Shown here: positions 17,423 through 36,687 of the stretch, piece by piece
Layout of the letters: every line of letters starts with the position of its first letter
Numbering within the stretch: the stretch's first letter is position 1
DNA from: Candidatus Nomurabacteria bacterium RIFCSPLOWO2_01_FULL_42_17
GTDB taxonomy: Bacteria; Patescibacteriota; Minisyncoccia; Phycocordibacterales; UBA9973
Length of the DNA: 64,000 nt
Direction: 5' to 3'
NCBI GenBank assembly: GCA_001785985.1
Contig: MFVE01000005.1
Location: forward strand, 112,533 to 176,532
The notes under the pieces: model-generated
Told to the model about the DNA's origin: nothing
The model's database searches: none
The model's input: only the letters and a program-made list of their open reading frames with translations
Translations under genes and position numbers: made by a program

Positions 17423-18503
17423 AATCGCGCAAGGCGAGCCCGAGCGCCGCCGCGAAGGAAAGCGCTTGTTTAAAATCTATATCTGGGACATATTTTTCCT
17501 TGTCTACTATATTGACCCAGACATTGGCCATCTCCACCGGACTCTTCATGCTGATAGAAAAATATTCCGCCAGTCCTATCAGATTAGAATCCCCGCCGCA
17601 GAGAATTATCTTCTCGATGGGCAGATTGTTCTGCCCTTCTTCATCCTTGTGAGTATGCCAGTATAGAAAATGCTTGACGAGCTCGTCGCGCAGAATAGAA
17701 ACACTGTTTAAAAGAACCGAAAATAATTCCTTGTTTGGAGTATTGCGCTCCAGGCCGTATTTTATTTTCATTTGTTCTGCTTCCTCAAAACTTAATTTGA
17801 AATTTTTTGCAATCATGTCGGTCAGCATCTTTCCGCCCACATCGAGCGTAGAAGTAAACATCACCAGACCACGAGATACGATAAAAATGCCTGTGAGTTT
17901 TTCTCCAAAATCAACAATCATATAAGTGCCGCGATCGCCGGCTTTCACAACCGCTCGGCAAATCGCCTGAGCTTCGAGTTCGAACGACTGGACTTTGATC
18001 TGCGCATTCTTGAATATAGAAAGATAATTTTCAATCACATTCTTTGGTACGGTGGCGACTTGGAGCTCCAAGTGCTGTTTATCTTGACTAATCAATTCAT
18101 AGTCAAAAATAGCATCTTCGGCTTTGAGCGGTATATGCTCTTCGAGGGAGAGTTCGATGCTTTCTCTGATATTAACTAATCCTGTTTTTTCTAATCGAAG
18201 TTTGAAAAGATAGACCTGTTCTTCGAGCAGAGAAACACGTACCGATTTTATTCCAACCTCGGTTTTTAATCTTTTTAGAATTTCCTCGATTTGCTTTGGA
18301 TTTTTGATCTTGCCCGACTCGATGATCCCGGGCGGAATAGGGCGCTCTCCATGCCGGCCGACCCGGATGCCATTTTTTGTATTTATCAGCTCTAAAAATT
18401 TCAATGATTCATCCCCGATATCTATACCGAAGGATGCAATGGACAAAAAAGAAGGAACTGGAAAAAGTCGGTTGAAAAATTTATTTAACGCATTCGAAGA
18501 CAT
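17409..18503 (-). CDS. pilM: Type IV pilus assembly ATPase-like protein PilM (actin-like fold)
   Basis: 364 aa; FGIDIGDESLKFLEL... actin/FtsA-like phosphate motifs; ...IILCGGDSNLIGLAEYFS. Confidence 0.65.
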   Translation of the reverse strand: MSSNALNKFFNRLFPVPSFLSIASFGIDIGDESLKFLELINTKNGIRVGRHGERPIPPGIIESGKIKNPKQIEEILKRLKTEVGIKSVRVSLLEEQVYLFKLRLEKTGLVNIRESIELSLEEHIPLKAEDAIFDYELISQDKQHLELQVATVPKNVIENYLSIFKNAQIKVQSFELEAQAICRAVVKAGDRGTYMIVDFGEKLTGIFIVSRGLVMFTSTLDVGGKMLTDMIAKNFKLSFEEAEQMKIKYGLERNTPNKELFSVLLNSVSILRDELVKHFLYWHTHKDEEGQNNLPIEKIILCGGDSNLIGLAEYFSISMKSPVEMANVWVNIVDKEKYVPDIDFKQALSFAAALGLALRDFEEN

Positions 18504-18575
18504 AGTAATATTGTAACATATTCATGTTTGATTTTCTAAAATAGAAAAGGAAGTACGCTTTTAAAATACTTCCTT

Positions 18576-18791
18576 TTATAGATCTCCACGAGCTACCGTT
18601 CCCGGTACACCCACGATCTTGAACTCTGAAGGATCACAGTCAAATGTTGCCTTTTGATCGCCTAGAAAAATTACGGCAAACCAGTTGTCTTTGACATTCA
18701 CGTAAAAGACCAACCCGATTTCGCCACAACGTTCCCCTGCGATCTTCTTGACCCAAGTGACCCTCGGAATCAACCTTTGTACTATGACCAT
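18576..18791 (-). CDS. Hypothetical small protein
   Basis: 71-aa ORF; no family recognised. Confidence 0.2.
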   Translation of the reverse strand: MVIVQRLIPRVTWVKKIAGERCGEIGLVFYVNVKDNWFAVIFLGDQKATFDCDPSEFKIVGVPGTVARGDL

Positions 18792-18854
18792 ATCAAGCCT
18801 TTCTTTATGCTAATTATATGGATATAGAAAGAAGATAGCAAGGAACTGTATAAA

Positions 18855-19310
18855 TCACATTTCATCAAACGAAACAGTGATGTATTCTGGTTTTTCAATA
18901 CCCAACTCTTTTTCAACGAATTCTTTGCTTGGATTTTCTCCGGTTACGATGATGAAATTTCCAACATCGTCGATAAGATTAAAAATTATTTGATAATTTT
19001 GGAATTGAAAAAATTTCCTGCTTCCCTTCATTATTCTTTTTATGCCGTATTGAGCAACTAGTTCTTTTTTTAGTTTTTCTATATTATCTATTCGCTCATC
19101 TTTTACGACTTGAAATTTACCATGAGCGGCTTGGAAGATATTGATGAACGCCCCCTTCTTCTTTTCTACTATTTTTAAGACTTTCCCTTCTGGTTGATGA
19201 AAATATGTATCAATGAAATATGTTTGATCAGTAATTTTCGCTCCATTCTTCAATAACCTTTGTTCAACTTCTTGAACATTATAAATTCGCGCTTTAATTT
19301 CTTGAATCAT
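18855..19310 (-). CDS. CYTH-domain protein (CyaB/thiamine-triphosphatase-like)
   Basis: 151 aa. An N-terminal E.K motif in beta strand 1 (MIQEIKARIYNV) and alternating acidic/basic beta-strand residues typical of the CYTH barrel. Confidence 0.45.
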   Translation of the reverse strand: MIQEIKARIYNVQEVEQRLLKNGAKITDQTYFIDTYFHQPEGKVLKIVEKKKGAFINIFQAAHGKFQVVKDERIDNIEKLKKELVAQYGIKRIMKGSRKFFQFQNYQIIFNLIDDVGNFIIVTGENPSKEFVEKELGIEKPEYITVSFDEM

Positions 19311-19348
19311 AAGAGAAGTATAGCAGAAATTAAGTTTGCATTTATAAT

Positions 19349-19378
19349 ATTCCTGAATTTAAATAATATGTTATACTG
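19349..19378 (+). promoter_or_regulatory. Promoter with an extended -10 (TGtTATACT) upstream of purF. It shares the TCCTGAATTTAA..TATGTTATACT module with the island cassettes.
   Basis: tcctgaatttaaataatatgttatact, 37 bp upstream of the purF ATG. Confidence 0.45.
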
Positions 19379-19414
19379 GCTCATATTCGAAAGGAAGAAA
19401 GAATAATAAATTAT

Positions 19415-20854
19415 ATGCAGGATTTAAATGAAAAATGTGGAGTGTTTGGTATTTACAGTAAAGATCGCGACGTTTCACGTATATCTTTTTTTGGTCTTTT
19501 TGCGCTTCAGCATCGCGGACAGGAAGCCTCAGGCATTGCAGCTACGGATGGCACACAGCTTCGTTCATTTCGCAATAGAGGCTTGATCTCAAATGTATTT
19601 ACTGAAGAAAAAATTAAAAAACTCAAAGGATTTGCCGCCATTGGACACAACCGCTATTCAACTTCTAAAGGCAATCATGTCAGCCACGCGCAACCCGTGA
19701 TAATTGATCCTGTTATTGATACTTCTTATAAAGGCGGAGGCATAAGAGCAAATGACGGACTTTTGGCTCTAGCGCATAATGGCAATTTGCCTAGCACTAC
19801 TGCCCTAGTTTCTTTTTTGAAAAGTAAAAATATACCAACGATGGATGATCAATCAGATTCTGAACTTATGGCGATTGTTATTGGAGTCTATTTGCGTGAA
19901 GGAAAAACATTACCGGAAGCAGTGCGCTTATGTTATCCGCTTTTTACTGGAACATTTTCCCTACTAGTGCTGACTAAAAATACACTTGTTGCTGTTCGAG
20001 ACCATTGCGGTGTCCGCCCACTTTCGCTTGGGAAACTTGACGGTGGATATGTAATTTCCTCTGAAACTTGTTCTTTTAAAACTATCGGCGCGGAATTTTT
20101 ACGAGATGTACTTCCTGGAGAGATGATAATAATTGATGAAAATGGTCTCGAGTCTATGCAAATCGCTCCAGCTAACCAAAAATTCGATCTTTTTGAATTT
20201 GTTTATTTTGCTCGACCTGACAGTAATTTATTAGGAAAATTAGTCTACGAAGTTCGTAAAAAATGTGGAGAACAGCTTGCCAAGGAACATCCAGTTAAGG
20301 CAGATATTGTCGTCCCAGTCCCAGAAACTGCCATTGCAGCGGCTATTGGTTATTCTAATGCTACTGGTATTCCCGTTGAAATGGCTTTAATGAAAAATCG
20401 CTATATTCATCGTACATTTATTGAACCTGAACAACACACTCGCGAGGCGGTGGTAAAATTGAAATTAAATCCGTTGCCTGAAATGCTTGTTGGTAAGCGA
20501 GTTGTGATTATTGATGATTCAATAGTCCGCGGAACTACTAGTCGTCAAATTGTAAGAGAATTATTCAACGCTGGCGCCAAAGAAGTTCACTTTTTAGTGA
20601 GTTCACCCCCTGTAAAATTTCCCGATTTCTATGGAATTGACACTCCTAAACAAGAAAACTTAATCGGTGCCAATAAGACAATAGAAGAAATAAAAGAGTT
20701 TTTAGGGGTAACCTCACTTCATTATCTCTCTCTAGAGGGATTAATCGCCTCAACTGGTTTACCAGAAAAAGATTTTTGTACATCGTGCTTTACGGGCGAA
20801 TATCCAATCGATATTTTAGAACGCAAAAAAGAAGTATACACCCCAAAAACATAA
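19415..20854 (+). CDS. purF: Amidophosphoribosyltransferase
   Basis: N-terminal Ntn Cys (M..CGVFGI); class-II glutamine amidotransferase domain; PRTase motif VVIIDDSIVRGTTS. Confidence 0.9.
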   Translation: MQDLNEKCGVFGIYSKDRDVSRISFFGLFALQHRGQEASGIAATDGTQLRSFRNRGLISNVFTEEKIKKLKGFAAIGHNRYSTSKGNHVSHAQPVIIDPVIDTSYKGGGIRANDGLLALAHNGNLPSTTALVSFLKSKNIPTMDDQSDSELMAIVIGVYLREGKTLPEAVRLCYPLFTGTFSLLVLTKNTLVAVRDHCGVRPLSLGKLDGGYVISSETCSFKTIGAEFLRDVLPGEMIIIDENGLESMQIAPANQKFDLFEFVYFARPDSNLLGKLVYEVRKKCGEQLAKEHPVKADIVVPVPETAIAAAIGYSNATGIPVEMALMKNRYIHRTFIEPEQHTREAVVKLKLNPLPEMLVGKRVVIIDDSIVRGTTSRQIVRELFNAGAKEVHFLVSSPPVKFPDFYGIDTPKQENLIGANKTIEEIKEFLGVTSLHYLSLEGLIASTGLPEKDFCTSCFTGEYPIDILERKKEVYTPKT

Positions 20855-20858
20855 TTGC

Positions 20859-21647
20859 TTAAATATTCGTTGATTTATTTCTACTTACCCAAATTCTATG
20901 TAAATGTCTTTGAATATCATGCGTTCCTAAATTTTTATGTTCTAATAATCCACGACCGTGGATTAGCCGCAAATTATCAAAAACAATAGCACTATTTTTC
21001 TTCCATGTGTGTGGAATAATTTTCAAATTTTTTTCTGCTATTTCTCCAAGTAAGTCATAAAATTTATCTGCATCTTCCTGAGTTTTACTACTTCCGGGTA
21101 AAGGTCTTAGACAACATTTAGGACTTGCAACCGCAATGTTCATTATGAGTTCATCGTTTTGATAACGCTTTTCTAAGAGTGGTCTTACAAACTCAAGTCC
21201 TTCTTTTTTTCTAAAAAGAAATTCATATTCTTTTGCCTCTTCTAATTGACTAGTGTTTCGTAAGATATCAATAATGTCTTTTGTGTCCCCAAAAACTGTT
21301 GGAATATCACTCGTGCCTGCATCCACACAGTGAAGAACAACTATTTCGGGAACTTTAGTTAAATATTGCCCATCTGTGTGTAGCCCAAAGTAACGACTTG
21401 ATCTTGAATAGTCAGATGCGCCTGCCTCTGGACTTTCTTTAACGTGGGAGATAATACCATCGCTACTTGCGATTGGTGTTAATATTTCACTTTCAGACAG
21501 TAATTTAATGAAGGATTCCGCATCTAAATCAACATCAAATATTTTCAAGCGTGGTCCTTCTTTACTAAAATCAATTTTAATTAATTCTTCGTAGAACTTT
21601 TTGGTTGACATAGATTCACTTTGATTGTTGAAAGATTCTTTGGGCAT
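20859..21647 (-). CDS. TauD/TfdA-family Fe(II)/2-oxoglutarate-dependent dioxygenase
   Basis: HxD...H facial triad (FGLHTDGQY ... LIHGRG) and WxNR-like IVFDNLRLIHGR. Confidence 0.5.
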   Translation of the reverse strand: MPKESFNNQSESMSTKKFYEELIKIDFSKEGPRLKIFDVDLDAESFIKLLSESEILTPIASSDGIISHVKESPEAGASDYSRSSRYFGLHTDGQYLTKVPEIVVLHCVDAGTSDIPTVFGDTKDIIDILRNTSQLEEAKEYEFLFRKKEGLEFVRPLLEKRYQNDELIMNIAVASPKCCLRPLPGSSKTQEDADKFYDLLGEIAEKNLKIIPHTWKKNSAIVFDNLRLIHGRGLLEHKNLGTHDIQRHLHRIWVSRNKSTNI

Positions 21648-21741
21648 AAAAATATAATTTTCATTATATCATAGATGATTGATTCCTATAATGTAATATT
21701 AGATTGACAAAATTCAAGTTTGTTCTTAACATAAAAGAGAT

Positions 21742-22203
21742 ATGGATACGACACCTGAAATTTCTCTTGAATCCAAAAAAACAATTTTTGAGAGAGTAAA
21801 AAAACTAAATTTCCCTATAGGTAAATATGTTGTAGTAGGCGGTGTAATGGAAGCGCATGGTATTAGGAAAGCAGTAGATGTTGATTTTATTGTCACTAAA
21901 GAATTATTTGATGATTTATTGAAACAGGGATGGGTGCCTAAGCCCTGTCGGCCTGGCGATATAGGTAAGGAAGGAGAAAAAAGAAAATTAAGAAAAGATG
22001 ATATTTCGATTATTTCTGAATATTCTTGGTTGGATAAGTATTTTGCAAAAACAGAAGATTTGATAGCCAACGCAGACATCATCGATGGTATACCTTTTAT
22101 ATCATTGAGCGAATTATTAAAATGGAAAAAAGCATGTGGTAGAGAAAAAGATTTGATAGATATCGAACTAATTGAGAATTATCTGAAAAAGAAAGGGAAT
22201 TAA
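21742..22203 (+). CDS. Nucleotidyltransferase-fold protein (Pol-beta superfamily; ANT/Lnu-like minimal NTase)
   Basis: hGG....G.....D.Dhh pattern (YVVVGGVMEAHGIRKAVDVDFIV). Confidence 0.4.
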   Translation: MDTTPEISLESKKTIFERVKKLNFPIGKYVVVGGVMEAHGIRKAVDVDFIVTKELFDDLLKQGWVPKPCRPGDIGKEGEKRKLRKDDISIISEYSWLDKYFAKTEDLIANADIIDGIPFISLSELLKWKKACGREKDLIDIELIENYLKKKGN

Positions 22204-22207
22204 ATTT

Positions 22208-22274
22208 GTAATACTAAGATTCCTGAATTTAAGCAATATGTTATACTATCCCTATGCCCGAAGGAGATAAAAGG
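22208..22274 (+). promoter_or_regulatory. Copy 1 of the repeated promoter-plus-leader cassette
   Basis: gtaatact..ttcctgaatttaagcaatatgttatactatccctATGCCCGAAGGAGATAAAA; an MPEGDK upstream ORF starts at 22254. Confidence 0.55.
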
Positions 22275-22281
22275 ACATCTT

Positions 22282-22461
22282 ATGATTCCAGAATTTCCAC
22301 AATTTAAAAATTTAGAACTTACCGACAAAATAGACGTCGAAAAATTTACTTCAAAATTTCCACCATATTCCGATTTTAATTTTGTATCCATGTGGTCTTG
22401 GGACATAAAGGGAGAAATGCGGATGAGGGGTTTCTCTAAAAAATTAAACTGGTATTAAAAA
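22282..22461 (+). CDS. Small ORF (59 aa) downstream of leader cassette 1
   Basis: ATG preceded by AAGGAG and followed by a terminator at 22470-22504. It falls below the ORF-track length cutoff. Confidence 0.25.
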
Positions 22462-22469
22462 TAAAAAAA

Positions 22470-22504
22470 CCCGCGTGTCACAAAGTGACAAAACGGGATT
22501 TTTT
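22470..22504 (+). terminator. Rho-independent terminator
   Basis: CCCG-cgTGTCAC-aaa-GTGACA-aaa-CGGG followed by ATTTTTT. Confidence 0.6.
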
Positions 22505-22543
22505 GAGGGTTTAGATAACAAGCAACCCACAAGTTGTAGTTTT

Positions 22544-23233
22544 TCAAACAATCAATTCCTTTTCAATGAACTGTACGATATTTTGTGTTGCGTAATCACA
22601 CCATACAGGCGGAGTTGTGTGTTCCTCTTTAGTATGGAGATCCACCCAACCGGACTCCCTAAGTCCGTTACCAACGAGTACAGTAACAAACCCCACTTCT
22701 TTAGCCATCTGCAAGCTCGAAGGAATGTCGTCGAACATGCAGATTTCTTGGGCCTTTATGCCAAGTTCTTGAACAGTGGCAAGGTATACTTCTCGGTTGG
22801 GTTTACGGATGAAGTTGTTACTCTCGATCGTAAACACTTTGGTGATGTAATCTCGAAGTCCAAGATGTTCAAGTCCACGAAGGACAAACGAACGGTTGGA
22901 GTTGGAAAAGATATGAAGTGGTGCTCTTTGGGAGAGACGTTTTAATGCTTCCCCTAGCCCTGGCTTAGGAAACATCGCGCTGATGTCAAGACCAGAATAT
23001 AGTTCCTCGTAGAATTCAAAGGGATCAATTCCATGATGCTCCTTTAAACCGAGGACACTTGAACGATATTCTTGTCGGTACTGAGTGAGGAGTCTACGAA
23101 CCTCCTTTTCTGGGATGTTTAACCTTTTTTGTGCACAAATCCGAAACCGGTGCATAATCTGGTCTTCGATACCGGCAGTAGAAGGGTATAGTGTTCCATC
23201 GAAATCAAACACAAATACTTTGATGTTTTTCAT
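22544..23233 (-). CDS. HAD-superfamily hydrolase (pyrimidine 5'-nucleotidase-like)
   Basis: HAD motif I FVFDFDGTLY; motif III/IV region ...MFDDIPSSLQMAKEVG. Confidence 0.7.
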   Translation of the reverse strand: MKNIKVFVFDFDGTLYPSTAGIEDQIMHRFRICAQKRLNIPEKEVRRLLTQYRQEYRSSVLGLKEHHGIDPFEFYEELYSGLDISAMFPKPGLGEALKRLSQRAPLHIFSNSNRSFVLRGLEHLGLRDYITKVFTIESNNFIRKPNREVYLATVQELGIKAQEICMFDDIPSSLQMAKEVGFVTVLVGNGLRESGWVDLHTKEEHTTPPVWCDYATQNIVQFIEKELIV

Positions 23234-24048
23234 AGTTTAAGAAGATGTTGATGTAGTTCTGAAGGACTCTCGAAGCGTTTCATTGGATCAGTCGAAAGAC
23301 TTTTTCGCAAGATCGCTTCAAGTTCTGGGAACGGATCCGCCCCAACTTCTTTAAACGTGAGAATGCGATTGCCAATAGCGCATTTGAGTTTCTGCTCCAT
23401 GGAAACTTCTTTCAATTTTTCTTTGGAAGCTCCAAAGTCAATTGCCAGACTTCCCGTGTAGAACATAAACAATGTTGCGCCAAGAGCGTACACTTCCGCA
23501 TGTGTGGTGTAGTCAATTATAGAGTCTCCTGATTTCATACTGCGAGCAATCTCAGGAGCCACGAAGTAGATGAATCCTCCCTTATACAACGGATTTGATT
23601 CGTTGATTTTTCGAGCCATACCCCAGTCAATGACTGTGATTTGGTCTCTCTCCAGGAAGGTGTGCGCTGGTTGAACGTCTCCATGGAGATACCCTCCTTG
23701 GTAGAGCAAATCATAGAACCCAGACACTTTGCGAAGCAGATCAATCTCATTTTTCCCTTCAATGTGATTGACTTCAATTTCTCGGATCAATAGCCAGTTC
23801 ACCCCTTGACTTGTCCCATGAGCTACATAGAGCTGATTTGTCAGATGCGGAACCGTTGAAAGAATCTCCGCTTCTTGGATTAAAAGTTGCCCTTTATCCA
23901 CTGAGCTTTTGTCATGGAACTTGAGAACCATTTTTTTCCCGCTTCGAAGAACACGCAACACAAGCGTGTCTCTCCTGTCAGCTATTGTTTCGACATAAGT
24001 GAGGCCAATCGCTTCAAGGAATTCTTCAATTTTTTGCATTGTTTTCAT
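23230..24048 (-). CDS. Protein-kinase-like fold protein (ePK/APH-type)
   Basis: Catalytic loop LHGDVQPAHTF (HGD), IDWGMA (DFG-equivalent) and VAPEIA (APE). Its start overlaps the HAD gene stop by 4 nt. Confidence 0.6.
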   Translation of the reverse strand: MKTMQKIEEFLEAIGLTYVETIADRRDTLVLRVLRSGKKMVLKFHDKSSVDKGQLLIQEAEILSTVPHLTNQLYVAHGTSQGVNWLLIREIEVNHIEGKNEIDLLRKVSGFYDLLYQGGYLHGDVQPAHTFLERDQITVIDWGMARKINESNPLYKGGFIYFVAPEIARSMKSGDSIIDYTTHAEVYALGATLFMFYTGSLAIDFGASKEKLKEVSMEQKLKCAIGNRILTFKEVGADPFPELEAILRKSLSTDPMKRFESPSELHQHLLKL

Positions 24049-24757
24049 TTTGTTTGTGTTTAGCTAGTTCTTGCTTTGATAGCTCTTTAGCTTTGGCATA
24101 AAAGTTACTCTGAGTTAGAGCGCCACTGATGCCGTCAAAGCTGGAACTCGTCGGCTCGGCGCAGAAAGCTCCAAGTGTGTCTTGATAAACAATCAGGTCG
24201 TTAAAGACATTTTGATTGACATCATTGGCTGATTCAAGAGAGGGTAGAAGCCATTCCGCCTTCTCAAAGAATTTGGGATCCCTGGCACGAACATTCTCTC
24301 GTATCGAGAAAAGATTGCACGGAGGGATAGGAAGGTCGCGTCCATTCTTTCCTTGTTCTACCGCGCCTTTCCAAAACTTTCCGAAAAGCACACCCACTTG
24401 GGTATACCTGCACTTCAAAACCCAATGAGGCCAAGCAAGTATTTCCTTGCTTAATGCATCATCTATGCGCGGGAACAGAAAGATTACGTTCTCGCACAAA
24501 AGAGGAGGTCTTTGTTTCAAGTTGGCTATCCTCCTTTGATGCCGGAGCAACTCGCTCATGATGTATCCGCTCGTAAAGACAATTCTTTCTGCGAGCAACT
24601 TGTCTTCAGTGTCTGAACTGACCACTGTGTAAGCCATCTCTTCTTTCAACATTGATGGATCGATGTAGGGACAAAAGCGTGAAGAAACTTCTGCTATGTA
24701 TTTCCTGAATCCCGAAACATTCGGGATATTTTTGCTTCTAAATTCTAAAACGTTCAT
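24026..24757 (-). CDS. Hypothetical protein. The ORF track gives 24026..24778; the start at 24757 (MNVLEF..) with an AAGGA RBS is favoured because a terminator hairpin covers 24779-24800.
   Basis: ORF of about 243 aa in an operon-like arrangement with the kinase and HAD genes; no family recognised. Confidence 0.3.
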   Translation of the reverse strand: MNVLEFRSKNIPNVSGFRKYIAEVSSRFCPYIDPSMLKEEMAYTVVSSDTEDKLLAERIVFTSGYIMSELLRHQRRIANLKQRPPLLCENVIFLFPRIDDALSKEILAWPHWVLKCRYTQVGVLFGKFWKGAVEQGKNGRDLPIPPCNLFSIRENVRARDPKFFEKAEWLLPSLESANDVNQNVFNDLIVYQDTLGAFCAEPTSSSFDGISGALTQSNFYAKAKELSKQELAKHKQNENNAKN

Positions 24758-24778
24758 ATTTCCTTTGTGAAAAATCAC

Positions 24779-24800
24779 GGGCAGAGTTTAGACCCTGCCC
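24779..24800 (-). terminator. Hairpin terminator downstream of the HExxH gene
   Basis: GGGCAG-agtttagacc-CTGCCC with flanking T-rich sequence. Confidence 0.4.
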
Positions 24801-24825
24801 GTTTTGTTTGTTGAATGATTACCTG

Positions 24826-25200
24826 TCAATCAAAAGGATCGCAATCCCAGCTGGCATGAAAGACGCCGGTTTGGAGATACTTCAGACGGCTTTGTTGATT
24901 GAGAATCCTGTTGGTGTCTTGGAACCAGACCTCGGGCAGTTTCCCGAAAAGTTTTTCATAAGTCTTCGTCCAATCGATTTTACCTTCACCTTTCACGGGT
25001 CGGTGGCCGACTTCGTGTCCAACAGCACTGCGACAGAATCCCTTGTACCTTTTTGGGTTCTTAAGACGCCGATGCCATTCGGTATCCACAGGACAAGCAG
25101 GCATGAATGTCCGTCTGCCAGTTTCTCGGTGGATTTGAGCCACCTGAAAGAAACGTTGCAACTCCCTCCCAAGGGAGACTTGCTTGATTTTTGTACTCAT
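24826..25200 (-). CDS. Small HExxH-motif protein (putative zinc metallopeptidase-like)
   Basis: 124 aa with CRSAVGHEVGHRP (HExxH); no further family recognised. Confidence 0.3.
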   Translation of the reverse strand: MSTKIKQVSLGRELQRFFQVAQIHRETGRRTFMPACPVDTEWHRRLKNPKRYKGFCRSAVGHEVGHRPVKGEGKIDWTKTYEKLFGKLPEVWFQDTNRILNQQSRLKYLQTGVFHASWDCDPFD

Positions 25201-25410
25201 AATTAGGAACTAATTTACTTTTGTTGTGTTAGATAACGCTCCAACGGTTGCGACTTATTTCATAGACTAGCTATCTCTATGAACCAAGCTCTTTAATCCC
25301 TAATTTATAAGGTTCAAAAAGCTTGATTCATATAAGGAGCCAAAAACTTTATCAAAGAACTTGTTACTTTCTTATCGTAACCTTTGCTGACAGAAAGTCA
25401 AGGATGTGTT

Positions 25411-25561
25411 GTAATGATAATATTTTTAAATTTAATAAATATGTTATACTAATCCCATGCCCGAGGGAGATAAAAAAGTTGACTGGTTTCTATGGCTAAT
25501 CGGCATTAGTTGTTTAACTGCAATTAATATAGCAAGGACTTTCCTTGCTATTCCTGTGTAG
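25411..25561 (+). promoter_or_regulatory. Copy 2 of the promoter-plus-leader cassette, with a 34-aa upstream ORF
   Basis: About 88% identical over 89 bp (25411-25499) to copy 3 at 29019-29107. Upstream ORF 25457-25561 encodes MPEGDKKVDWFLWLIGISCLTAINIARTFLAIPV. Confidence 0.55.
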
Positions 25562-25567
25562 ATATTC

Positions 25568-26572
25568 ATGCGAAGTATATACAAAACTTATAAAACTGGA
25601 ATTATTAAACTAGGTAAAGATGAGTTGTTCTATAAAATTCTTAATGAAAAAGATTTCAATTCAGAAGTTGTAGGTTATAAGGCTTTATTGAATCACTACC
25701 CAGTACCTAAACTTTTGAGCTACATTAAAATTAATAAAGATTCATACTGCATGCTCTTTAAAAGAGAGATTTCTGTGGGCGTAGAAAAAGGTTTGCTTGT
25801 CGATTTATTTGCAAGCAAAAAGAAGCTAGAGAAAGATTTTTTAAAAATAATTAAACTTTATCGAGAAGTGTTTTTGAAAACTCTCAATCAAACTAAGTAC
25901 ATATCATGTAATATTTTCTTTTCTGATAGAGTTAACGGTCGGTTACCAAAATACTACAATAAAGTTTTTCTAAATAAAAAATTTAGTTTTTCCTTGAATG
26001 GAAAAGGTGTAAATATAAAACTAGAAGATTCTATAAAAGAAATCCAAAAATATTTTAAAAGGAAAATATTTTTTTGGTCGGTTATATCTCAGTGTGATCC
26101 AAGCGATTTAAATATAGCCATCAAACCTATTGTTTTTGATTATACTGCTGGAGGGAATGTACCAATCATGGCTGAATTTGCTACATTTTTTTGGTGTCAG
26201 CTTTTTCACGGAAACTATTTAGCGCTTAAGTATAACCCTAAGTCATTTACGAATCATCGAGCAATATACAAAAAGATTGATAAAGTTATAATGAAAAAAG
26301 ATAAAATTATTCATACACCCATGAAGCTCAGAAAAGAGTTTTTAGAAATGTATATTAAAGAAGTAATCAATCCTTGTTTTTATAAAATAGGTAATAATTA
26401 CCCAGATTGGTTTACTGATTTTAAAAATTTTCTCGCAATGAGAATCATTGGCGTTTACAATATTTCAAAAATGGATAAAAAAGATATGCTTTTATCCCTG
26501 GGATACCTTTCTATTTTTTATAATGCAAAAGATATAAAAAAGCCAGAGGATTTATTAGAATTAATTGATTAA
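25568..26572 (+). CDS. Hypothetical protein, possibly a degenerate kinase-fold (APH/choline-kinase-like) protein. Very AT-rich.
   Basis: SQCDPSDLNIAIKPIVFDYTAGG resembles the h.HxDLxxxNIL..//..IDFEY catalytic region of APH/ChoK-type kinases, with the His replaced. GC is visibly lower than in the flanking genes. Confidence 0.3.
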   Translation: MRSIYKTYKTGIIKLGKDELFYKILNEKDFNSEVVGYKALLNHYPVPKLLSYIKINKDSYCMLFKREISVGVEKGLLVDLFASKKKLEKDFLKIIKLYREVFLKTLNQTKYISCNIFFSDRVNGRLPKYYNKVFLNKKFSFSLNGKGVNIKLEDSIKEIQKYFKRKIFFWSVISQCDPSDLNIAIKPIVFDYTAGGNVPIMAEFATFFWCQLFHGNYLALKYNPKSFTNHRAIYKKIDKVIMKKDKIIHTPMKLRKEFLEMYIKEVINPCFYKIGNNYPDWFTDFKNFLAMRIIGVYNISKMDKKDMLLSLGYLSIFYNAKDIKKPEDLLELID

Positions 26573-26574
26573 GT

Positions 26575-36213: not shown

Positions 36214-36687
36214 ATGGAAAAACTCGAATGGTCCGCTTTGGAATATGAAGAGAAGGAAAGAAGCCGAGATTGGTTTTGGGCGCTTGGGATTATTGTGGCG
36301 ACGAGCTCCATTGCTGCGATGATTTTCGGAAATTATTTTTTTGCAGTCCTACTAATTCTCAGCGGAGTCTTATTGGGATTCTTTGCAATTAAAAAACCAG
36401 AAATGGTGCATTACGAATTAAATAATCAGGGACTGAAAATCCGAACCCATCTCTATCCTTATGAAAGAATCAAATCTTTTTGGGTACAAATAGATAAAAG
36501 CGGAGAGAGGAAAGTCAAACCGACACTTTTTATAAAATCAGAGAGAGCGTTTATGCCTGTTATCGAAATGCCTATAGAATACATCATGGCTGACGACATT
36601 CACGCCATTATGCTTTCAAAAAATATTGCGGAAGAGGAAATGAAAGAGCACACATCTCTTAAAATAATGGAGTCTTTGGGCTTTTAG
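36214..36687 (+). CDS. Membrane protein with a bacterial PH-like domain
   Basis: Two N-terminal TM helices, then a beta-rich segment of about 90 aa. Confidence 0.35.
   Translation: MEKLEWSALEYEEKERSRDWFWALGIIVATSSIAAMIFGNYFFAVLLILSGVLLGFFAIKKPEMVHYELNNQGLKIRTHLYPYERIKSFWVQIDKSGERKVKPTLFIKSERAFMPVIEMPIEYIMADDIHAIMLSKNIAEEEMKEHTSLKIMESLGF

What the first reader, a model, noticed from the sequence alone, without database searches (positions are those of the whole stretch)
25411..25561. Thrice-repeated roughly 90-bp promoter-plus-leader cassette with an MPEGDK(KVDWFLWL) upstream ORF heading island genes
Copies at 22208-22274, 25411-25499 and 29019-29107 share an extended -10 promoter block (TCCTGAATTTAA..TATGTTATACT) and a leader ATGCC(C/T)GA(A/G)GGAGATAAAAAAGTTGACTGGTTTCTATGGCTAA. 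Copies 2 and 3 are about 88% identical over 89 bp, lie in direct orientation 3.6 kb apart and bracket a four-gene block. Each begins a short upstream ORF with identical first codons (MPEGDK) that then diverges (34, 24 and 17 aa). A fourth locus upstream of purF shares only the promoter block. The cassette could be a mobile promoter, a leader-peptide attenuator or a recombination scar marking cassette boundaries.
Basis: seen in the sequence. Interest (0 to 1): 0.75.

Follow-up and report, generated by a model that had tools for sequence, protein, structure and literature searches.

The report
Reused leaderless promoter with gene-start stubs
The repeated 90-bp cassette is real: it is the promoter plus the first few codons of a small conserved Parcubacteria gene, left as truncated stubs in front of unrelated operons, so it is promoter reuse and gene decay rather than a new regulatory RNA or leader-peptide switch.

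Summary
There are three direct copies: 22206-22272, 25409-25499 and 29017-29107. Copies 2 and 3 are 89% identical over 91 nt. A fourth, promoter-only copy lies at 19328-19377 before purF.

The "MPEGDK" upstream ORFs are not leader peptides. They are 5' stubs of 6, about 24 and 14 codons from a conserved 125-aa membrane-anchored, Cys-rich hypothetical protein of Parcubacteria/Paceibacterota (at least 195 protein clusters). In intact relatives this gene starts exactly 6 nt after a TRTGnTAnAAT extended -10 and has no Shine-Dalgarno sequence, so it is probably leaderless.

- In relative L027, the ortholog of the gene after copy 2 follows a near-full-length copy of this gene. Copy 2 is therefore an in-place decayed gene.
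- The stub-plus-EamA junction of copy 3 is shared with a distant relative (L033).
- In L013 the same cassette is fused in frame to an AdoMet decarboxylase.
- The copies lie in a 15.3-kb island between ruvX and pilM.
- The window is Shine-Dalgarno-poor and rich in leaderless-type starts.
- I found no Rfam match, terminator or significant fold.

Best reading: a propagated promoter that carries its start codon with it. Promoter activity is inferred, not shown. Interest is modest.

The parts
18504..33802 (.). About 15.3-kb island between pilM (17409-18503, -) and ruvX (33803-34255, -). It holds all four cassette copies.
   Evidence: In relative L010, ruvX and pilM-pilN-pilO are adjacent (70-76% aa identity to the window genes). 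In the window they are 15.3 kb apart. GC is 0.34-0.40 inside the island, against mostly 0.40-0.45 in the wider flanks.
19328..19377 (+). Copy 4: promoter-only copy (extended -10 TATGTTATACT, hexamer 19372-19377), 37 nt upstream of purF (19415-20854).
   Evidence: 84% identical over 50 nt to copy 1. Homology ends at the -10. purF is TIGR01134, 441 bits.
22198..22272 (+). Copy 1: promoter (-10 at 22242-22247), ATG at 22254, and 6 codons (MPEGDK) of the conserved gene.
   Evidence: The best outside match is the L013 cassette (86% over 57 nt).
22254..22307 (+). Stub ORF 1 (17 aa, MPEGDKRTSYDSRISTI). It overlaps the start of a 58-aa ORF (22282-22458) of unknown identity, which ends at a hairpin followed by a T-run on the minus strand (my reading of the sequence; the scan did not list it).
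   Evidence: No Pfam or NCBIfam hit for the 58-aa ORF.
25374..25401 (-). Divergent sigma-70-like promoter (TTGACT, 16 nt, TACGAT) just upstream of copy 2. The AAAGTCAAG box is also present upstream of the native or related promoters in L008, L030 and L033.
   Evidence: Its role as a promoter is inferred.
25409..25456 (+). Copy 2 promoter: TTGTAATGATAATAT...AATATGTTATACT (hexamer 25445-25450), then 6 nt, then ATG.
25457..25561 (+). Stub ORF 2 (34 aa, MPEGDKKVDWFLWLIGISCLTAINIARTFLAIPV): a decayed 5' end of the conserved 125-aa gene. Its stop codon lies 6 nt before the ATG of the 334-aa gene.
   Evidence: tblastn matches aa 1-30 of the L003 protein (70% identity, E 1e-8). In L027 the orthologous position holds a near-full-length gene. 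Translation.
25568..27303 (+). Two-gene unit (334 aa of unknown function, plus a 242-aa nucleotidyltransferase-like protein) with no -10 or SD-like motif of its own found upstream, so it probably depends on the copy 2 promoter.
   Evidence: Orthologs start at the same ATG.
29017..29107 (+). Copy 3: promoter (-10 at 29053-29058), ATG at 29065, and 14 codons (MPEGDKKVDWFLWL).
   Evidence: It is homologous to the stub upstream of the EamA operon in L033.
29065..29139 (+). Stub ORF 3 (24 aa). It overlaps the EamA start by 22 nt.
29105..29110 (+). Second -10-like hexamer (TAAAAT), 7 nt before the EamA ATG at 29118. It straddles the point where copy 3 stops matching copy 2 (TATGGCTAA|AAT) and is conserved in L031 and L033.
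29118..33172 (+). Five-gene operon: EamA, a PLP decarboxylase, a 272-aa protein, a 97-aa protein and a histidine kinase. It is conserved as a block in relatives.

Best explanation
Each cassette is the promoter plus the translation start of a small conserved Parcubacteria gene. I call this gene the "MPEG" gene. It encodes 125 aa: an N-terminal membrane helix followed by a domain with 10 invariant cysteines.

In intact relatives the gene's ATG lies exactly 6 nt after an extended -10 element (TRTGnTAnAAT), with no Shine-Dalgarno sequence. Transcription should therefore start on the A of the ATG, giving a leaderless mRNA. Because promoter and start codon are physically fused, any copy or remnant of this promoter carries the ATG and some codons with it.

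In the window the body of the gene is gone. Only the promoter plus 0, 6, 14 or about 24 codons remain, each in front of a different operon of a 15-kb island.

- Copy 2 is a gene that decayed in place.
- Copy 3 is an old stub, probably refreshed by gene conversion from copy 2.
- Copies 1 and 4 are more diverged.

The retained function is most likely transcription of the downstream genes. The stub ORFs are by-products. They would be translated from the 5'-terminal AUG and are tolerated because this genome hardly uses Shine-Dalgarno sequences. For copy 2, the stop codon 6 nt before the next ATG would allow termination-reinitiation.

Shown: the homology, the nested break points, the island, and the leaderless-type architecture. 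Inferred: promoter activity, the transcription start site, gene conversion and translational coupling.
For: 1. Origin. The genome scan found the same promoter plus ATGCCTGAAGGAGA at the head of a real 125-aa ORF in Parcubacteria GW2011_GWB1_37_13. That protein has at least 195 homologous clusters at 58-99% identity, all about 125 aa. Window stubs match only its N-terminus: aa 1-30, 1-15 and 1-9.

2. Leaderless architecture. In L003, L005, L008, L010 and L027 the ATG is 6 nt after TRTGnTAnAAT. In the window, 22 of 65 gene starts have TAnnnT 5-8 nt upstream (mode 6-7), against 5.3% of internal ATGs. Only 6 of 65 have an SD-like motif.

3. In-place decay. In L027, an 89%-identical ortholog of 25568-27217 sits 30 nt after a near-full-length MPEG gene that already carries a premature TAA.

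4. Reuse elsewhere. L013, from the same metagenome, has the cassette (78-86% identity) fused in frame as MPEGDKK plus AdoMet decarboxylase (PF02675, 3.5e-24). L033 and L034 have promoter, decayed stub and second -10 before the orthologous EamA operon (alignment score 59 against 17.5 +/- 5.8 for shuffles, 0 of 2000 reaching it).

5. Constraint on the promoter. TATGTTATACT is the only long invariant run across six aligned cassettes. L033 keeps the -10 and the ATG while its stub peptide has decayed.

6. Concerted evolution. The window copies are 81-88% identical to each other but 67-76% identical to L003 and L013. All 10 mismatches between copies 2 and 3 fall in the first 57 of 91 nt (P=0.007).

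7. Flanking genes are unrelated. There are no convincing blastp cross-hits among them: the only one is a 16-residue match at E 0.53.
Against: There is no transcript or transcription-start data, so promoter activity and leaderless starts rest on sequence architecture alone. The standard -35/-10 scan did not call the cassettes, because they have no good -35 and rely on the extended -10. EamA has its own conserved -10 seven nt before its ATG, so copy 3 may be redundant. Copy 1 heads only a 58-aa ORF of unknown identity, so that copy may be a dead remnant. I could not determine whether the genome keeps an intact MPEG gene outside the window. I could not separate "whole-gene duplication followed by repeated deletion" from "duplication of the promoter stub alone". 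The island inference rests on a single comparator (L010).
Confidence: 0.75

Rival explanations
1. Leaderless regulatory upstream ORF or leader-peptide attenuator. Translation of the MPEGDK... peptide would control expression of the downstream genes by attenuation or coupling, and the peptide or RNA would be conserved for that purpose.
For: The stub ORFs start at a probable 5'-terminal AUG. The stop of stub 2 is 6 nt before the ATG of a gene that has no SD and no promoter of its own found. The last 34 nt of copies 2 and 3 are identical.
Against: No terminator-like site lies between stub and gene. Fold z-scores run from -1.6 to +0.5. Rfam finds nothing. The three peptides diverge after 6, 14 and 24 codons and end differently. 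The L033 stub has lost the WFLWL motif. The sequence is explained by descent from a coding gene. Simple reinitiation coupling at copy 2 remains possible, but only as a by-product.
Confidence: 0.12
2. Recombination sites. The repeats would be att-like or homology anchors through which gene modules enter and leave. For example, a circular [cassette + 4 genes] intermediate could integrate Campbell-style into the cassette upstream of EamA, giving the direct repeats at 25409 and 29017.
For: Direct repeats bracket a four-gene block whose content (334-aa gene, nucleotidyltransferase-like gene, NUDIX, about 400-aa gene) recurs as a module in L029. The upstream flank of copy 2 shares short patches (AAAGTCAAG, ACGGTTGCGACTT, CAAAAAGCTTG) with the region upstream of the EamA operon in L030 and L033. 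This fits a block inserted into a formerly single cassette. What lies downstream of the MPEG gene differs between genomes.
Against: Pfam finds no integrase or recombinase in the island. The break points differ between copies, so there is no common crossover core. The copies are 82-89% identical, not identical. No strain variant lacking the block was found: other contigs are identical or break at the repeat. The shared flank patches are short and were not significant in blastn.
Confidence: 0.1
3. The similarity is only the consensus promoter of this organism, seen by chance four times.
For: TRTGnTAnAAT followed by ATG at 6-7 nt is common at gene starts in this window, for example pilM at 18503, and the genes at 36214 and 34255.
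Against: Similarity extends 30 nt upstream of the -10 and 19-43 nt downstream, reaching 89% over 91 nt (E 8e-31). The downstream part is homologous to a protein-coding gene.
Confidence: 0.02

Closest known systems
Putative mobile promoters / promoter propagation (Matus-Garcia, Nijveen and van Passel 2012, PMC3488235; Nijveen et al. 2012, PMC3575422)
   Same: Homologous upstream regions of 50-100 nt at 80% identity or more, in front of non-homologous genes with non-homologous upstream neighbours, both within one genome and across genomes. No IS element, MITE or riboswitch is involved.
   Different: Here the unit can be traced to a specific donor gene and carries that gene's start codon and first codons, because the gene is leaderless. 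This leaves stub ORFs or, in L013, an in-frame N-terminal fusion. The published pipeline discarded clusters that mixed promoters and coding sequence. The lineage is an uncultivated Parcubacteria.
Leaderless genes and leaderless short ORFs (Zheng et al. 2011, PMC3160421; Shell et al. 2015, PMC4633059; Cortes et al. 2013, PMC3898074)
   Same: A -10-like signal a fixed short distance upstream of the start codon, no SD, and short ORFs at the 5' ends of transcripts upstream of annotated genes.
   Different: In mycobacteria the transcription starts and translation were measured. Here they are only inferred from sequence. These stubs are demonstrable gene remnants, not dedicated small proteins.
Pseudogene remnants and microhomology-type deletions in reduced genomes (general knowledge)
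   Same: L027 shows a nonsense mutation, the window shows a deletion of about 300 nt of the gene body, and L033 shows a decayed stub. Together these look like a decay series.
   Different: The promoter and ATG are retained and invariant while the coding part decays. This suggests selection for transcription of the downstream genes.

Membership tests
Putative mobile promoter family (PMC3488235 definition) | Upstream regions align over at least 50 nt at 80% identity or more | tested here: met
   c2-c3: 89% over 91 nt. c1-c3: 84% over 67 nt. c1-c2: 82% over 67 nt. c1-c4: 84% over 50 nt. c2-c4 and c3-c4 reach only 42 nt at 81%.
Putative mobile promoter family (PMC3488235 definition) | Downstream and upstream CDSs of the copies do not align | tested here: met
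   All-against-all blastp of the 4 downstream and 4 upstream proteins gave no convincing cross-hit: the only one is a 16-residue match at E 0.53. DNA similarity stops at the cassette ends. Pfam families differ.
Putative mobile promoter family (PMC3488235 definition) | Cluster contains no coding sequence and is not an IS element, MITE or riboswitch | tested here: inconclusive
   No Rfam hit and no terminal inverted repeats reported. However, the 3' part of the cassette is coding sequence in other genomes, which the published filter would have flagged.
Leaderless gene start | -10 hexamer ending 5-8 nt before the start codon, with no SD | tested here: met
   TATACT, then 6 nt, then ATG in c1-c3. 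The same spacing holds in 5 relatives. Genome-wide enrichment is 22/65 against 5.3%.
Leaderless gene start | Transcript 5' end mapped on the A of AUG, and translation from it | not testable with these tools
   No transcriptome or ribosome-profiling data are available here.
Leader-peptide transcription attenuator | Terminator and antiterminator hairpins between the leader ORF and the gene | tested here: not met
   No terminator-like site in 25457-25567, 29065-29117 or 22254-22281. Folding is not better than shuffles.
Riboswitch or other described cis-regulatory RNA | Match to a curated covariance model, or conserved structure with covariation | tested here: not met
   No Rfam hit at gathering score or at E<=1. 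The substitution pattern in relatives is codon-like. Too few copies exist for a formal covariation test.
Integron cassette or site-specific att repeat | Nearby integrase and a common crossover core at a fixed position | tested here: not met
   No integrase or recombinase domain in 18.5-33.8 kb. The 3' ends of homology differ in every copy.
MPEG protein family (125-aa Paceibacterota hypothetical protein) | N-terminal MPEG..KK..WFLWLIGISCL anchor | tested here: met
   Copy 2 matches at 70% over aa 1-30 (E 1e-8) and copy 3 at 80% over aa 1-15.
MPEG protein family (125-aa Paceibacterota hypothetical protein) | FYFFYFKKDYDF segment and the Cys-rich domain (10 invariant Cys) | tested here: not met
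   No match anywhere in the window. The window copies are therefore fragments, not members.

The most novel reading that the evidence does not exclude
In Shine-Dalgarno-poor, leaderless-rich CPR genomes, a roughly 110-bp module may serve as a portable expression head. The module comprises a divergent TTGACT promoter, an extended -10, an ATG and a few codons. It would be repeatedly attached to incoming operons, either as an in-frame N-terminal tag (L013, AdoMet decarboxylase) or as a short leaderless upstream ORF whose termination feeds ribosomes to the next SD-less gene (copy 2). Its copies would be kept alike by gene conversion. Promoter capture in leaderless genomes would then necessarily mean start-codon capture.
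Probability: 0.25. Interest if true: 0.55.

Novelty: new member of a known kind. Interest (0 to 1): 0.33.

Why it matters
It shows concretely how an uncultivated, reduced-genome bacterium wires accessory operons into expression. It recycles the promoter of a conserved gene rather than evolving new ones. Because the donor gene is leaderless, the recycled promoter brings its start codon with it. This produces stub ORFs that gene callers annotate as tiny proteins: the 34-aa ORF is called in public annotations. It can also produce N-terminal fusions. This matters for annotating CPR genomes, for reading "small protein" predictions with caution, and for predicting promoters in a phylum with almost no experimental transcription data. 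It does not reveal a new class of regulator.

Tried and rejected
- Rfam at gathering score on the whole window, and at E<=1 on 19.3-29.2 kb: only tRNAs and one chance miRNA hit.
- RNA folding of all leaders: not significant.
- Promoter and terminator consensus scan: the cassettes were not called as -35/-10 promoters, and no attenuator-like terminator was found.
- Strain variants lacking the block between copies 2 and 3: the other contigs are 100% identical or simply end inside the repeat.
- Whether the genes after copy 3 are the native neighbours of the MPEG gene (EamA, 269-aa protein and histidine kinase in L005): BLASTP shows no orthology for EamA or the 272-aa protein, and the kinase is only about 34% identical.
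- Viral contig scan: only unrelated phage sequences that fit the pattern by chance (MPEGEDVNSMYFLHG...), and they lack the TRTG context. The same applies to most metagenome hits.
- My recollection that the 58-aa ORF after copy 1 resembles a DUF2156 N-terminus: no Pfam or NCBIfam support even at E<=5, so I dropped it.
- The 157-aa gene at 36214 as a possible intact MPEG homolog: it is a different protein.
- Function of the MPEG protein: no Pfam, NCBIfam or PDB sequence hit. The AlphaFold model (pLDDT 76) has no Foldseek match in PDB at E<=0.001.

Full report
**1. Observation**

- The repeat finder groups 22206-22296, 25409-25499 and 29017-29107 into one direct-repeat family. It also finds a four-member family of the 50-nt promoter part that includes 19328-19377.
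- blastn gives copy 2 vs copy 3 at 89% over 91 nt (E 8e-31), copy 1 vs copies 2 and 3 at 82-84% over 67 nt, and copy 4 vs copy 1 at 84% over 50 nt.
- The motif ATGCCYGARGGAGATAAAA occurs three times, against 0.14 expected.
- The short ORFs are 34, 24 and 17 aa.
- The gene after copy 4 is a true purF.
- The same proteins and neighbours are on record on 5-6 contigs from several samples. A 24-kb JGI contig is 100% identical over the stretches fetched from it (about 19.3-33.0 kb), which hold all four copies. This is not a misassembly.

**2. Organism and genomic setting**

The window matches groundwater metagenome contigs (JGI 3300025317 and Rifle 3300002105). Its relatives are Parcubacteria/Paceibacterota.

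In relative L010, ruvX and pilM-pilN-pilO are adjacent. In the window the orthologs (70-76% aa identity) are 15.3 kb apart, so 18504-33802 is an inserted island. Its GC content is somewhat lower than that of most of the wider flanks.

The island carries:
- purF;
- a TauD-like dioxygenase, a HAD phosphatase and a protein kinase;
- a 334-aa unknown gene plus a nucleotidyltransferase-like gene;
- a NUDIX gene and a 385-aa gene;
- a five-gene operon of EamA, a PLP decarboxylase, two unknowns and a histidine kinase;
- a RelB/RelE pair at its right end.

No integrase was found.

**3. What the "upstream ORF" is**

A scan of one genome per species for promoter plus leader gave one true hit, in Parcubacteria GW2011_GWB1_37_13 (L003). 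There the same promoter and ATGCCTGAAGGAGA... open a real 125-aa ORF.

This protein defines a well-conserved family: at least 195 clusters, 58-99% identity, nearly all about 125 aa, all annotated as hypothetical, with no Pfam, NCBIfam or PDB match. It has an N-terminal helix (MPEG.DKK.NWFLWLIGISCL...FYFFYFKKDYDF) followed by a domain with 10 invariant cysteines.

The window contains only N-terminal pieces:
- copy 2 matches aa 1-30 (70% identity, E 1e-8);
- copy 3 matches aa 1-15;
- copy 1 matches aa 1-9;
- nothing matches the C-terminal domain.

Homology ends at a different point in each copy: 19377, 22272, 29107 and about 25526-25565. In intact relatives the residues WFLWLIG(I/V)SCL are invariant while the DNA differs mainly at synonymous positions. 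The conservation is therefore protein-coding, not RNA structure.

**4. A leaderless gene start**

In L003, L005, L008, L010 and L027 the ATG of this gene lies exactly 6 nt after a TRTGnTAnAAT extended -10, with no SD. This holds even where the gene directly follows the stop codon of an upstream EamA gene. With the hexamer at its canonical -12 to -7 position, +1 falls on the A of the ATG. That step is established promoter geometry, not measured here.

The window as a whole fits this pattern. 22 of 65 gene starts have TAnnnT 5-8 nt upstream (mostly 6-7), against 5.3% of internal in-frame ATGs. Only 6 of 65 have an SD-like motif. The purine-rich GAAGGAGA in the cassette therefore encodes Glu-Gly-Asp and is not a ribosome-binding site. 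A promoter of this kind cannot be copied without its start codon.

**5. History of the individual copies**

Copy 2.
- In L027 an 89%-identical ortholog of 25568-27217 sits 30 nt downstream of a near-full-length MPEG gene. That gene already has a premature stop (AAA to TAA at codon 33) and is preceded by the usual EamA gene.
- Copy 2 is therefore the same gene further decayed in place. About 300 nt of its body are deleted, leaving the promoter and a 34-codon ORF that stops 6 nt before the 334-aa gene.
- I found no -10 or SD-like motif of its own upstream of that gene, either in the window or, by eye, in the L027 and L028 sequences.

Copy 3.
- The five-gene EamA operon is conserved as a block in L031/L032 and L033/L034.
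- L033 has, upstream of it, TATGCTAAAAT-N6-ATGTCCGAAGAAAAAAAA...GCTAAAAT-N6-ATG. This is homologous to window copy 3 through to the EamA start (score 59 against 17.5 +/- 5.8 for shuffles).
- In L033 the stub peptide has decayed (MSEEKKFVALLAKIKICRMNYT).
- L031 has lost the cassette's -10 and the stub but keeps the EamA-proximal -10. L030 has no stub.
- The stub-EamA junction is thus old.
- The point where copy 3 stops matching copy 2 (TATGGCTAA|AAT) coincides with the conserved EamA-proximal -10 (TAAAAT, 7 nt before ATG 29118). This suggests a deletion between similar sequences.
- Window copy 3 nevertheless carries a perfect DKKVDWFLWL. It is identical to copy 2 over its last 34 nt, and all 10 mismatches lie in the first 57 nt (P=0.007). 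The window copies resemble each other (81-88%) more than they resemble L003 or L013 (67-76%). Gene conversion between copies is the simplest explanation, but it is inferred.

Copy 1. It heads only a 58-aa ORF of unknown identity that ends at a hairpin. This copy may be a dead remnant.

Copy 4. It keeps only the promoter, in front of purF.

**6. Reuse in another genome**

L013, a contig from the same metagenome, has the cassette (78-86% identical to the window copies) next to a divergent methyltransferase gene. It is fused in frame: MPEGDKK followed by a complete AdoMet decarboxylase domain (PF02675, 3.5e-24). This is promoter-plus-start capture that yields a working leaderless gene rather than a stub.

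**7. Mechanism proposed**

The cassettes most likely act as promoters for the rightward operons of the island. Three observations support this:
- TATGTTATACT is the only long invariant run across six aligned cassettes.
- The -10 and ATG persist in L033 while the peptide decays.
- The 334-aa operon has no alternative promoter signal.

The stubs would be translated from the 5'-terminal AUG. At copy 2, termination 6 nt before the next ATG would allow reinitiation. At copy 3, EamA can also be expressed leaderless from its own -10.

An AAAGTCAAG box about 45 nt upstream of the -10 reads TTGACT-N16-18-TAnnnT on the other strand. It is present in copy 2, L008, L030 and L033, next to unrelated divergent genes. 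The module may therefore be bidirectional. All promoter activity is inferred.

**8. Rivals**

- A leader-peptide attenuator or riboswitch is not supported. There is no terminator, no significant fold and no Rfam hit. The peptides diverge, and a coding origin is shown.
- A role as recombination anchors cannot be excluded. The four-gene block between copies 2 and 3 recurs as a module in L029. The upstream flank of copy 2 shares short patches with the region upstream of the EamA operon in L030 and L033. This would fit insertion of the block into a formerly single cassette. However, no recombinase, no common crossover core and no variant lacking the block were found.
- Mere promoter consensus is excluded by the length and identity of the matches.

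**9. Comparison with known systems and novelty**

Operationally the copies meet the published definition of putative mobile promoters: at least 50 nt, at least 80% identity, and unrelated flanking genes (PMC3488235). The leaderless architecture matches what has been predicted or measured in other bacteria (PMC3160421, PMC4633059).

What is specific here is that the donor gene can be identified. Because it is leaderless, the propagated promoter carries its start codon, which leaves stub ORFs or an N-terminal fusion. My full-text searches found no paper holding both "leaderless" and "Parcubacteria", and the two hits I opened for "leaderless" plus "candidate phyla radiation" mention it only in passing. 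That is an absence of hits in a limited library, not proof of novelty.

I rate this a new member of a known kind, of modest interest. It is useful mainly for annotation and for understanding how CPR genomes express acquired operons.

Noticed in passing
whole window (e.g. 18503-, 19310-, 34255-, 36214+, 58433-, 60859-): The genome is Shine-Dalgarno-poor (6 of 65 starts) and rich in leaderless-type starts. 22 of 65 first ATGs have TAnnnT 5-8 nt upstream, against 5.3% of internal ATGs, often with the TRTG extension.
   Followed up: partly
L003:4444-4821 and about 195 homologs (P0001-P0120): A conserved, uncharacterised 125-aa Paceibacterota protein family with an N-terminal TM helix and 10 invariant Cys (CDP..E.CF.RDC..PD.CPPNG...). 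It has no Pfam, NCBIfam or PDB match. The AF2 model has pLDDT 76 and no Foldseek hit. It usually follows an EamA gene, and what lies downstream of it varies between genomes.
   Followed up: partly
L013:168-593 (-): An AdoMet decarboxylase gene whose first seven codons (MPEGDKK) and promoter come from the MPEG gene. This is an in-frame promoter-and-start capture in a contig from the same metagenome.
   Followed up: yes
L027:628-999: An MPEG gene with a premature TAA at codon 33 (AAA to TAA) but an otherwise readable body, directly upstream of the ortholog of window 25568. It is either a real pseudogene or a sequencing error.
   Followed up: partly
window 33250-33534 and 33536-33793 (+): A RelB/DinJ-type antitoxin and a RelE/ParE-type toxin pair at the right edge of the island. 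It is preceded by the best -35/-10 match of the region (TTGACA, 16 nt, TATACT with TG; 33194-33221).
   Followed up: partly
window 25201-25400; L033:5387-5520; L030:380-600: Short patches are shared between the long intergenic region upstream of copy 2 and the regions upstream of the EamA operon in relatives: ACGGTTGCGACTT, CAAAAAGCTTG..TCAT, a C-run, and AAAGTCAAG. Their meaning is unknown. They could be a divergent promoter with its leader, or traces of a rearrangement.
   Followed up: partly
window 27766-29064 (-): Public gene calls give a 432-aa product that starts at 29064 and runs antisense through copy 3. A start at 28923 (385 aa, with AAGGAG 7 nt upstream) seems more likely. The L029 homolog is 406 aa. 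I did not verify this.
   Followed up: no
window 29118-33172; L031:3143-7187; L033:5585-9597: A five-gene operon is conserved as a block in different genomic contexts: EamA transporter, group IV PLP decarboxylase (lysA-like, below cut-off), a roughly 270-aa membrane protein, a roughly 95-aa protein and a short histidine kinase. Substrate unknown.
   Followed up: partly
L012, L015-L019, L035-L042: Freshwater phage contigs share a conserved 25-aa ORF (MPEGEDVNSMY(F/L)LHG..., seen in L012 and L015-L019) after TGTTATAAT. L035-L042 overlap them by contig and coordinates but were not translated. They fit the search pattern but are unrelated to the cassette.
   Followed up: partly
window 18566-18793 (-): A GC-richer 75-aa ORF at the left edge of the island, between pilM and the 151-aa gene. 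I read it by eye from the sequence and did not analyse it.
   Followed up: no
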